This document shows, one piece after another, positions 23,698 through 24,925 of a stretch of 64,000 bases of DNA. Below the pieces are notes generated by a model that saw nothing but the letters and a program-made list of their open reading frames with translations, ran no database searches and was not told the origin of the DNA. The position numbers and the translations under genes are program-made. The stretch's first letter is position 1. Each line of letters begins with the position of its first letter. Origin of the DNA: Promethearchaeota archaeon. GTDB taxonomy: Archaea; Asgardarchaeota; Lokiarchaeia; Sigyniarchaeales; SOKP01. Where the stretch lies: contig JBHLOY010000001.1 of NCBI GenBank assembly GCA_048939995.1, forward strand, positions 462,449-526,448. Reading direction: 5' to 3'.

Positions 23698-24925
23698 CTA
23701 AAATTGATAAATAATTATTTGATCTGGAATTATCAATTCTTCTTCTTTGTTTTTACAAGCGATAAATTTTATTTTCATTTTTAATGCTTCCGAAAGAAGA
23801 CGTTTGGTTAAGATCCCATCAATAATTAAATATTCAGTTTTATTATATTTTATAATCTCTTCAAATAATTCTTTGACAGGGATTTCAAATAATTTTTCTA
23901 GTTTATTGTTATATCCTATGCTATAATCGGGTGGAATTGTATCTAGGGCATCAATAATTATATTTTGGTTTTTAATTTTAAGCTTTTTAAGGAGTTTAGT
24001 AATCAAGGTTTCTGCAGGTTTTTTTTCCTTAGCTGAGGGGATTGTTTCTGATTTCTCTAAAGGTTCTGTTGTAGATCTTTTATTTTGAAGGGACTTTATC
24101 AATTGCTTCCTTGTTAATTCTTCTACTTCATAACCCTCAGGTGCTCGAGCAATAAAATCAACTTTTACTAGTTGCATTAATTCTTTTATAATTAGTTCAC
24201 CCCCACGATCTCCATCAGAGAAGATAATTATTGACTTTTTTTGTTTTGCTAAGTCTATTACAGATTTTGGGATATGAGTTCCTTGAACCGCTATACTATT
24301 TTTTATACCTATTCTTAATAAGTTTAGTACGTCTGCACGGCCCTCTACAATGATAAGTTCGTCGTTGCTATCGACTTCTGGTCCTGCAGGTAGTCCTTCA
24401 GGCCCCCATTTTATTATTTCGCCAAGTTTAATATCTGTATCTATCTTTTCTTCAATTTCACTAGGTTCGAGCGATTTTTGATCCCATTCTTTTAATAATT
24501 CTGCTGCTCGTTCAATAATTTTTTTGCGTTTGGTTTCTCTTACATCTCTAATTTCAATTAGTTTGATTTGGGCTTCACATGGTCCTACGCGAGTAACAGT
24601 TTCAACTGTCGCCGCCAATAATGCTGTCTCCTTTCTAGTTAATGAGGATGGAATTTTAATAATGCCTATTGAAAGGCCCTCTTTGGATTCATTTTCTACT
24701 TCAATCCTTCCAATTCGTCCTGATTTTTGAAGATCTCTTAAATCAAGATCTAAAAGGAGACCCTCGGTTTAGCCGATTGAGCCGAACTGGCTTTTTTTAT
24801 CTTTGACCAAATATGGCGCCGACTATATCGCTCTTTTCAACCACTCCTTTAATTTCAAATTTAGCTTCAATAATATATTTTGTAGTAAAATCTACTTGAT
24901 TATTGGTAATCTTGATCACTTCCAT
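23698..24925 (-). CDS. dnaG: Archaeal DnaG (primase-like exosome subunit), two exons 24925-24803 and 24768-23698, 397 aa after splicing
   Basis: Exon 1 MEVIKITNNQVDFTTKYIIEAKFEIKGVVEKSDIVGAIFGQ joins exon 2 TEGLLLDLDLRDLQKSGRIGRIEV...; TOPRIM motifs IIVEGRADV and DGDRGG. Confidence 0.92.
24769..24802 (-). other. Putative 34-nt bulge-helix-bulge-type mRNA intron in dnaG
   Basis: AGATAAAAAAAGCCAGTTCGGCTCAATCGGCTAA; central helix GGUC/GGCU, two AA^A bulges, inner helix GAU/AUC; removal gives GGT CAA ACC GAG. Confidence 0.8.

What the first reader, a model, noticed from the sequence alone, without database searches (positions are those of the whole stretch)
24769..24802. Bulge-helix-bulge-type intron inside the dnaG protein-coding gene
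Seen in sequence: the invariant archaeal DnaG motif GAIFGQTEGLL is split between Q and T by 34 nt. Read unspliced, exon 1 stops after one more codon (CAA AGA TAA), and a TAA sits in frame immediately before exon 2. The pre-mRNA folds as GGUC-AA^A-GAU...AUC-GGCU-AA^A. That gives a 4-bp central helix (GGUC/GGCU), two 3-nt bulges on opposite strands and an inner helix GAU/AUC. Cutting after the second base of each bulge yields GGU CAA ACC GAG and an intact 397-aa protein. The outer helix is imperfect (UCGG/CCGA is offset), so this is a relaxed BHB/BHL form. Established: EndA cleaves BHB bulges in exactly this register and RtcB ligates; the classic archaeal mRNA intron is in cbf5. Inference: an endonuclease-spliced mRNA intron in dnaG of an Asgard archaeon, which I do not know to be described. 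Both exons look undecayed, which argues against a pseudogene.
Basis: partly seen in the sequence, partly recalled or inferred. Interest (0 to 1): 0.95.

Follow-up and report, generated by a model that had tools for sequence, protein, structure and literature searches.

The report
tRNA-type intron splitting Lokiarchaeon dnaG
The only dnaG gene (an RNA-exosome subunit) of this Loki-type Asgard archaeon is broken by a 34-base insert that dozens of relatives keep at the same codon with matching base-pair changes, so its mRNA very probably has to be cut and rejoined by the tRNA-splicing enzymes, which the papers I could search confirm for the coding part of only one archaeal gene (cbf5).

Summary
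Confirmed. Removing 24769-24802 joins two exons that abut exactly on the archaeal DnaG profile (positions 1-26 and 27-278) in the genome's only dnaG. The same codon boundary is interrupted in 55 of 400 Asgard genomes (control 0) and in Jordarchaeales; two more intron sites lie nearby in relatives. In 55 distinct copies the variable central-helix pair stays paired 55/55 through five pair types (shuffle mean 32.5). Every insert breaks translation, yet both exons are under strong purifying selection. Two EndA paralogues and RtcB are present, and I verified seven more such inserts in other genes of this genome. Best reading: an EndA/RtcB-spliced relaxed-BHB mRNA intron (0.9). No spliced RNA was found. 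Caveat: in Loki dnaG the BHB fold is predicted 4-7 kcal/mol above a competing fold, unlike most other introns here, so splicing may be inefficient or regulated. New here: a conserved inner pentaloop hairpin, and gains and losses that come with short foreign exon patches. The scan found dnaG introns before on other Asgard DNA; in print I found only cbf5 and a Haloferax 5' UTR.

The parts
24803..24925 (-). dnaG exon 1 (41 codons from ATG 24925); includes the K-Y pair at profile positions 1-2, probably equivalent to K6/Y7 of the Sulfolobus N-terminal RNA-binding domain
   Evidence: PMC4227792; the K6/Y7 equivalence is inferred
24769..24802 (-). 34-nt relaxed-BHB intron (site A, between Gln41 and Thr42); shifts the frame and carries TAA stops
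23698..24768 (-). dnaG exon 2 (356 codons plus stop): rest of the N-terminal domain, TOPRIM domain and C-terminal domain
24805..24808 (-). 5' (exonic) strand of the 4-bp central helix, GGUC
24802..24804 (-). 5' 3-nt bulge AA^A (predicted 5' cut)
   Evidence: register from established EndA chemistry
24799..24801 (-). inner helix 5' strand GAU (pairs with 24775-24777)
24793..24798 (-). A-rich 5' side bulge of variable length (main source of the 34-43 nt length variation in this intron type)
24780..24792 (-). conserved terminal hairpin AGCC-AGUUC-GGCU (C-G-closed pentaloop, usually ending in UC)
24771..24774 (-). 3' (intronic) strand of the central helix, GGCU
24768..24770 (-). 3' 3-nt bulge AA^A (predicted 3' cut); can also pair with the exon-1 Phe codon UUU
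24815..24817 (-). Ala codon GCC, 5' strand of a distal exon-exon helix with Gly codon GGU at 24760-24762
   Evidence: paired in 47/55 intron-bearing vs 13/58 intron-less genes
24819..24825 (-). exon-1 stretch UAGUCGG predicted to pair with the intron's 3' end (24770-24776) and compete with the BHB
   Evidence: prediction only

Best explanation
The 34-nt insert is a true intron of the dnaG mRNA. The pre-mRNA forms a relaxed bulge-helix-bulge: a 4-bp central helix made of exon and intron, two purine-rich 3-nt bulges, an inner helix capped by a pentaloop hairpin, and only a loose exon-exon stem. The two-subunit EndA cuts after the second base of each bulge and RtcB joins the exons, giving full-length DnaG with its N-terminal RNA-binding domain. 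Unspliced mRNA gives only a 42-aa peptide. Shown here: the anatomy, conservation, covariation, selection and presence of the enzymes. Inferred: cleavage and ligation in vivo. On function, neutral persistence as a tolerated intron is the likeliest (about 0.6-0.7). Because the BHB competes with an alternative fold, conditional splicing that tunes DnaG levels is possible (about 0.25).
For: Exon junction exact on the NCBIfam profile. Single dnaG copy in a 98% complete genome. Site A is split in 55/400 genomes, control 0, and in 3/3 Jordarchaeales tested. Central pair 3, a synonymous exon base against an intron base, is paired 55/55 as CG 30, UG 10, AU 8, GC 5, GU 2; shuffle mean 32.5, maximum 44; over 8 distinct helix classes p=0.007. 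On a 12-row alignment 95.9% of cells pair, against 13-50% with partners slid by 1-3 columns. All 59 site-A and site-B inserts shift the frame or contain an in-frame stop, yet exon-1 dN is 0-0.015 in 10 of 11 valid pairs and exon-2 dN/dS is 0.02-0.15, as in intron-less pairs. Inserts at two other dnaG sites also form BHBs in the EndA register. EndA alpha with Tyr/His/Lys, an EndA beta and RtcB are present. Seven more genes of this genome have motifs or frames restored by BHB excision.
Against: No spliced transcript or full-length protein was found for any intron-bearing lineage, though these collections are mostly DNA assemblies. ViennaRNA gives the central helix a probability of about 0.001; the BHB lies 4.1 kcal/mol above the minimum with the helix forced and 7.2 with both bulges held open. 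Most Loki site-A copies lie 2-10 kcal/mol above their minimum, whereas in 6 of 7 other introns of this genome the BHB is within 0.5 kcal/mol of it. Three of the four central pairs barely vary, kin are not independent, and the covariation rests on a handful of events. The base pair next to the 3' bulge on the exon side is a mismatch.
Confidence: 0.9

Rival explanations
1. Not spliced: exon 2 is translated alone from an internal start, and exon 1 plus the insert act as a leader or an EndA cleavage signal without ligation.
For: Databases call N-truncated products of 305-375 aa in these lineages. The BHB is not the predicted minimum-energy fold.
Against: The first common start codon in exon 2 is a TTG at residue 92 without a ribosome-binding site. 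Exon 1 is almost invariant at the protein level and carries residues that Sulfolobus DnaG needs for RNA binding (PMC4227792). The split falls inside one invariant motif. Excision restores the frame for inserts of 28-43 nt at three different sites.
Confidence: 0.04
2. Ribosomal bypassing or frameshifting (T4 gene 60 or mitochondrial byp type) jumps over the insert during translation.
For: A stop codon follows the take-off point, there is a hairpin in the gap, and the insert's end (GGCUAA) resembles the exon-1 end (GGYCAA).
Against: Take-off and landing codons match in only 1 of 55 copies (CAA or CAG against TAA, TAT, TTA, TAG). The variable base follows complementarity, not direct-repeat identity. 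Inserts occur in all three length phases.
Confidence: 0.03
3. Pseudogene or assembly artefact.
For: All genomes are metagenome-assembled; many relatives lack the insert.
Against: Present in more than 55 independent assemblies with its own sequence divergence. It is the only dnaG copy. Exon 2 is intact in all complete loci, and dN/dS is low.
Confidence: 0.01

Closest known systems
cbf5 pre-mRNA intron of Desulfurococcales and Sulfolobales (Yokobori 2009, PMC2738675)
   Same: Short intron inside an invariant motif of a coding sequence; relaxed BHB; predicted cuts between the 2nd and 3rd bulge bases; hetero-oligomeric EndA; patchy gain and loss; missed by annotation; host gene is an RNA-metabolism protein.
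   Different: Different gene (dnaG) and phylum (Asgard). Three insertion sites within about 35 nt rather than one. A conserved inner pentaloop hairpin. One of at least eight such inserts in one genome. cbf5 splicing is shown by cDNA; this one is not.
Haloferax volcanii HVO_1309 5' UTR BHB intron (PMC7714728)
   Same: An EndA substrate in an mRNA.
   Different: That intron is in the untranslated leader; here the reading frame depends on precise ligation.
Non-canonical tRNA introns of Asgard archaea (bioRxiv 10.64898/2026.10.13.758758)
   Same: Same motif, similar size and the same enzymes; two EndA paralogues; repeated gains.
   Different: tRNA hosts only; the word mRNA does not occur in that preprint's main text.
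HAC1/XBP1 non-spliceosomal mRNA intron of eukaryotes (own knowledge)
   Same: Short frame-shifting mRNA intron removed by an endonuclease and a tRNA-type ligase (RtcB for XBP1).
   Different: Cut by IRE1 in two hairpin loops, not a BHB; its regulation is proven, here only hypothesised.

Membership tests
EndA-spliced BHB mRNA intron (cbf5 type) | Insert interrupts a conserved ORF and precise removal restores it | tested here: met
EndA-spliced BHB mRNA intron (cbf5 type) | 4-bp central helix of exon plus intron, kept by compensatory change | tested here: met
   55/55 paired at the variable pair, five pair types
EndA-spliced BHB mRNA intron (cbf5 type) | Two 3-nt bulges with the exon-intron borders after the second base | tested here: met
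   Only this register keeps 4/4 pairs in all lineages; bulges AAA, AGA, AAU, AAG
EndA-spliced BHB mRNA intron (cbf5 type) | Flanking helices (strict hBHBh', or relaxed with one helix) | tested here: met
   Inner helix present; exon side is only a distal 3-bp helix, so relaxed form, not strict
EndA-spliced BHB mRNA intron (cbf5 type) | BHB is the fold actually adopted by the pre-mRNA | tested here: inconclusive
   Predicted 4-7 kcal/mol above the minimum, but supported by covariation
EndA-spliced BHB mRNA intron (cbf5 type) | Host encodes a hetero-oligomeric EndA and RtcB | tested here: met
   substrate range of this EndA not tested
EndA-spliced BHB mRNA intron (cbf5 type) | Spliced mRNA or cleavage shown experimentally | not testable with these tools
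   No RNA-derived junction found
Translational bypass element (T4 gene 60, byps) | Matching take-off and landing codons | tested here: not met
   1 of 55
Spliceosomal or group I/II intron | GU-AG ends, or a ribozyme core | tested here: not met
   Ends AG..AA; 29-43 nt long; no relevant Rfam match
Archaeal DnaG (exosome subunit, NF003108) | Profile score above cut-off; exosome core genes in the genome | tested here: met
   Exon 2 alone scores 363 bits against a cut-off of 300; adjacent RNase PH-family genes and an ECR1_N-like gene on C19

The most novel reading that the evidence does not exclude
Lokiarchaeia run EndA/RtcB mRNA splicing on many core genes, and the dnaG intron is a regulated switch. 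Its BHB competes with an exon-intron helix, and a factor that reads the shared C-ANUUC-G pentaloop or the A-rich bulge (possibly poly(A)-binding DnaG itself) sets the splicing rate. Introns move between sites and lineages on 30-60 nt recombination patches.
Probability: 0.2. Interest if true: 0.93.

Novelty: new variant of a known kind. Interest (0 to 1): 0.8.

Why it matters
In the papers I could search, splicing inside an archaeal coding sequence is confirmed only for cbf5 (PMC2738675, PMC7714728). [quoted passage not shown] That bears on where HAC1/XBP1-type splicing and tolerance of mRNA introns came from. It also means Asgard proteomes are mis-annotated: these genes are called as N-truncated proteins. 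The claim is directly testable with existing RNA-seq reads and one in vitro cleavage assay.

Tried and rejected
Ab initio genome scans for BHB introns did not beat their decoys (52 loci against 45-55), so I give no genome-wide count; I accepted other introns only where a conserved motif or the frame was restored and the BHB register fitted. A search for the dnaG hairpin motif alone gave 33 mostly chance hits. A metagenome pattern that accepts both spliced and unspliced junctions returned 3 contigs, all of unspliced length (one search was a pattern slip). Protein and cluster searches for full-length DnaG in lineages that carry the intron found only truncated calls. Full-length proteins close to L074 came from a different, intron-less allele, not from spliced RNA. 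Rfam gave nothing above gathering score. The bacterial promoter scan was uninformative; its terminator-like hits are the intron hairpins read on the opposite strand. The WIN-L003 exon-1 dN/dS value is invalid (truncated contig). purA, kae1, ychF, E1, leuC, gcvPA and alba introns were not recovered by my motif script in the part of the output shown, which is no evidence of absence. Selection on the competing helix is unresolved: compatible codons in 21/38 against 10/58 genes, but kin are not independent. Literature searches found no dnaG or Asgard coding-sequence intron; subscription journals and the 2006 predictions cited in PMC2738675 are not covered.

Full report
Observation. dnaG lies on the minus strand from ATG 24925 to the stop at 23698, upstream of an OsmC-like gene, secE and ftsY on the other strand. 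Exon 1 runs into a stop one codon past Gln41, and exon 2 is preceded in frame by TAA. Removing 24769-24802 gives 397 aa without a stop, and tblastn finds no second dnaG in the 3.75 Mb, 98% complete genome. NCBIfam NF003108 matches exon 1 to profile positions 1-26 and exon 2 to 27-278, so the halves abut exactly. The closest loci come from Promethearchaeota (Lokiarchaeia) MAGs.

Distribution. A degenerate pattern for an insert between the Gln and Thr codons (site A) matched 55 of 400 genomes of the phylum; the reversed control matched none. The matches are 52 of 135 in the window's family (8 genera), one genome of a sister family and both genomes of a distant unnamed family. Three of three Jordarchaeales also carry a 31-34 nt BHB insert at site A; they have Leu for Thr, so the pattern missed them. 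Three of three genomes of another family carry a 28-29 nt BHB insert a few codons downstream (site C). Four scattered members of the window's family carry a 30-31 nt BHB insert 22 nt upstream (site B). Single representatives of the other families tested mostly had intact junctions; a few could not be parsed. On the DnaG tree the deepest-branching genera of the family carry site A and intron-less genes are nested among carriers, which fits an old intron with repeated losses. Site B appears in four separate places and never together with A (quick tree, no formal test).

Structure. Across 55 distinct site-A copies (29-43 nt) the central helix takes eight forms, among them GGCC/GGCU, GGUC/GGCU, GGAC/GUCU, GGGC/GCCU and GGCC/GGUU. 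The third pair joins a synonymous Gly base in the exon to an intron base. It is paired in 55 of 55 copies in five pair types, against a shuffle mean of 32.5 (maximum 44); over the eight classes p is 0.007. The pair-count tool gives 95.9% paired cells and a covariation score of 0.15, against 13-50% and at most 0.06 with partners slid. These sequences are related, so the number of independent events is small. The bulges are purine-rich. The inner helix starts with G-C in 53 copies and C-G in 2. Intron-bearing genes also shift synonymous codons so that Ala GCY can pair with Gly GGY across the junction (47/55 against 13/58). This gives a loose exon-exon stem after an internal loop, that is, a relaxed BHB. 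Inside, 50 of 55 introns end in a hairpin with a 5-nt loop ending in UC, although stems and lengths differ. The same C-AAUUC-G loop occurs in site-B introns and in the insert of an unrelated gene at C7:27864.

Not a dead gene, not bypassing. All 59 site-A and site-B inserts shift the frame or contain an in-frame stop. Yet exon 2 is intact in every complete locus, and dN/dS is as low as in intron-less pairs: exon-1 dN is 0-0.015 in 10 of 11 valid pairs and exon-2 dN/dS is 0.02-0.15. Exon 1 holds the K-Y pair at the start of the profile. By inference these are K6/Y7, which Sulfolobus DnaG needs for RNA binding (PMC4227792). The first common start codon in exon 2 is at residue 92. Take-off and landing codons match in 1 of 55 copies, and the variable base follows complementarity rather than repeat identity, which rejects ribosomal hopping.

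Machinery and context. The genome encodes two EndA paralogues, one with the catalytic Tyr, His and Lys and one without the His, and RtcB. This matches the two-subunit architecture reported for most Asgard genomes (bioRxiv 10.64898/2026.10.13.758758), and such enzymes cleave relaxed motifs in cbf5 mRNA (PMC2738675). Many tRNA genes have introns, and exosome core genes are present. Following leads from earlier notes, I checked that BHB-register excision restores the frame or a conserved motif in fwdA (30 nt), metG (32), a CaiB-type CoA transferase (31), EF-1alpha (33), a MoxR ATPase (30) and uL11 (37). My own scan added an unnamed gene at C7:27864 (29). The ab initio scans did not beat decoys, so eight is a lower bound, not a census.

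The main caveat. For the window's pre-mRNA, ViennaRNA prefers a 7-bp helix between exon-1 codons Ile-Val-Gly and the intron's 3' end. The BHB is 4.1 kcal/mol higher with the central helix forced (the 3' bulge then pairs with the Phe codon) and 7.2 higher with both bulges open. Most Loki site-A copies behave alike, whereas six of seven other introns in this genome and the distant dnaG introns L138 and L139 fold into the BHB at or within 0.5 kcal/mol of the minimum. The energy model may undervalue this G-U-rich motif, co-transcriptional folding or EndA binding may capture it, or splicing may be inefficient and open to control. Feedback by poly(A)-binding DnaG on the A-rich bulge is a speculation, and several lineages lack that bulge.

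Gain and loss. L074 (site-B intron) differs from the intron-less L188 at 2 of 570 nt in exon 2 but at 12 of the 60 nt just upstream, and its nearest patch neighbours include L037, a site-B carrier of another genus. L037 shows the same spike against L050. The intron-less L024 and L034 differ from their intron-bearing sisters at 11 of the last 30 nt of exon 1, against about 3 elsewhere. This suggests that introns are gained and lost by short-patch recombination with foreign alleles rather than by precise cDNA-type loss. Chimeric assembly is not excluded.

RNA evidence. None was found. The metagenome scan returned only matches of unspliced length, and all database proteins from intron-bearing lineages are N-truncated calls.

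Comparison and verdict. It works like, and passes every testable feature of, the cbf5-type EndA-spliced mRNA intron, except that the predicted fold is inconclusive and splicing is unproven. Papers searched confirm only cbf5 and a Haloferax 5' UTR intron (PMC2738675, PMC7714728); introns in other genes were predicted in older work I could not read. The scan's own notes report dnaG introns in other Asgard and related genomes, and BHB introns in many other Asgard genes. These are unchecked AI notes, used as leads only. Confidence in splicing 0.9; new variant of a known kind; interest 0.8.

Noticed in passing
G000 C17:377452(-), C6:82172(+), C38:64707(+), C11:167345(-), C7:20329(+), C23:129234(-): BHB-type inserts of 30-37 nt in fwdA, metG, a CaiB-type CoA transferase, EF-1alpha, a MoxR ATPase and uL11; excision restores the frame or a conserved motif.
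   Followed up: partly
G000 C7:27864(+), 29 nt: Near-perfect BHB insert in an unnamed gene (exon 2 of 254 codons; looks PAC2/proteasome-chaperone-like from memory, not tested) with the same C-AAUUC-G loop as many dnaG introns.
   Followed up: partly
G000 C17:97256(+), 30 nt: Further BHB candidate that joins two frames of a peroxiredoxin-like ORF (family not tested).
   Followed up: no
L021, L037, L074, L133: Second dnaG intron site 22 nt upstream (inside the Ile codon), never together with site A; it lies at the base of the helix that competes with the site-A BHB, which hints at relocation.
   Followed up: partly
L170, L174, L177: Third dnaG intron site a few codons downstream (28-29 nt, perfect hairpin) in family f19.
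   Followed up: partly
L074 vs L187/L188; L024/L034 vs L146/L147: Intron gain or loss coincides with a 30-60 nt divergent exon patch in otherwise near-identical genes.
   Followed up: partly
window 24910-24925 (-) and many ORF starts: The GGAAGUGAU at the dnaG start resembles the archaeal Shine-Dalgarno sequence, and many ORFs of this genome have GGUGA but no ATG nearby; non-canonical start codons may be common.
   Followed up: no
L183 (G290:C3:44245-45288): dnaG match with five stops inside in family f24; broken gene or another insert, not parsed.
   Followed up: no
L061 (DATKTW010000002.1): A contig titled as an actinobacterium (Nanopelagicaceae) carries a Lokiarchaeia dnaG locus; probably a mis-binned contig.
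   Followed up: no
G000 whole genome: ARAGORN finds only 20 tRNA genes, 12 with introns, in a 98% complete genome; many intron-rich tRNAs are probably missed.
   Followed up: no
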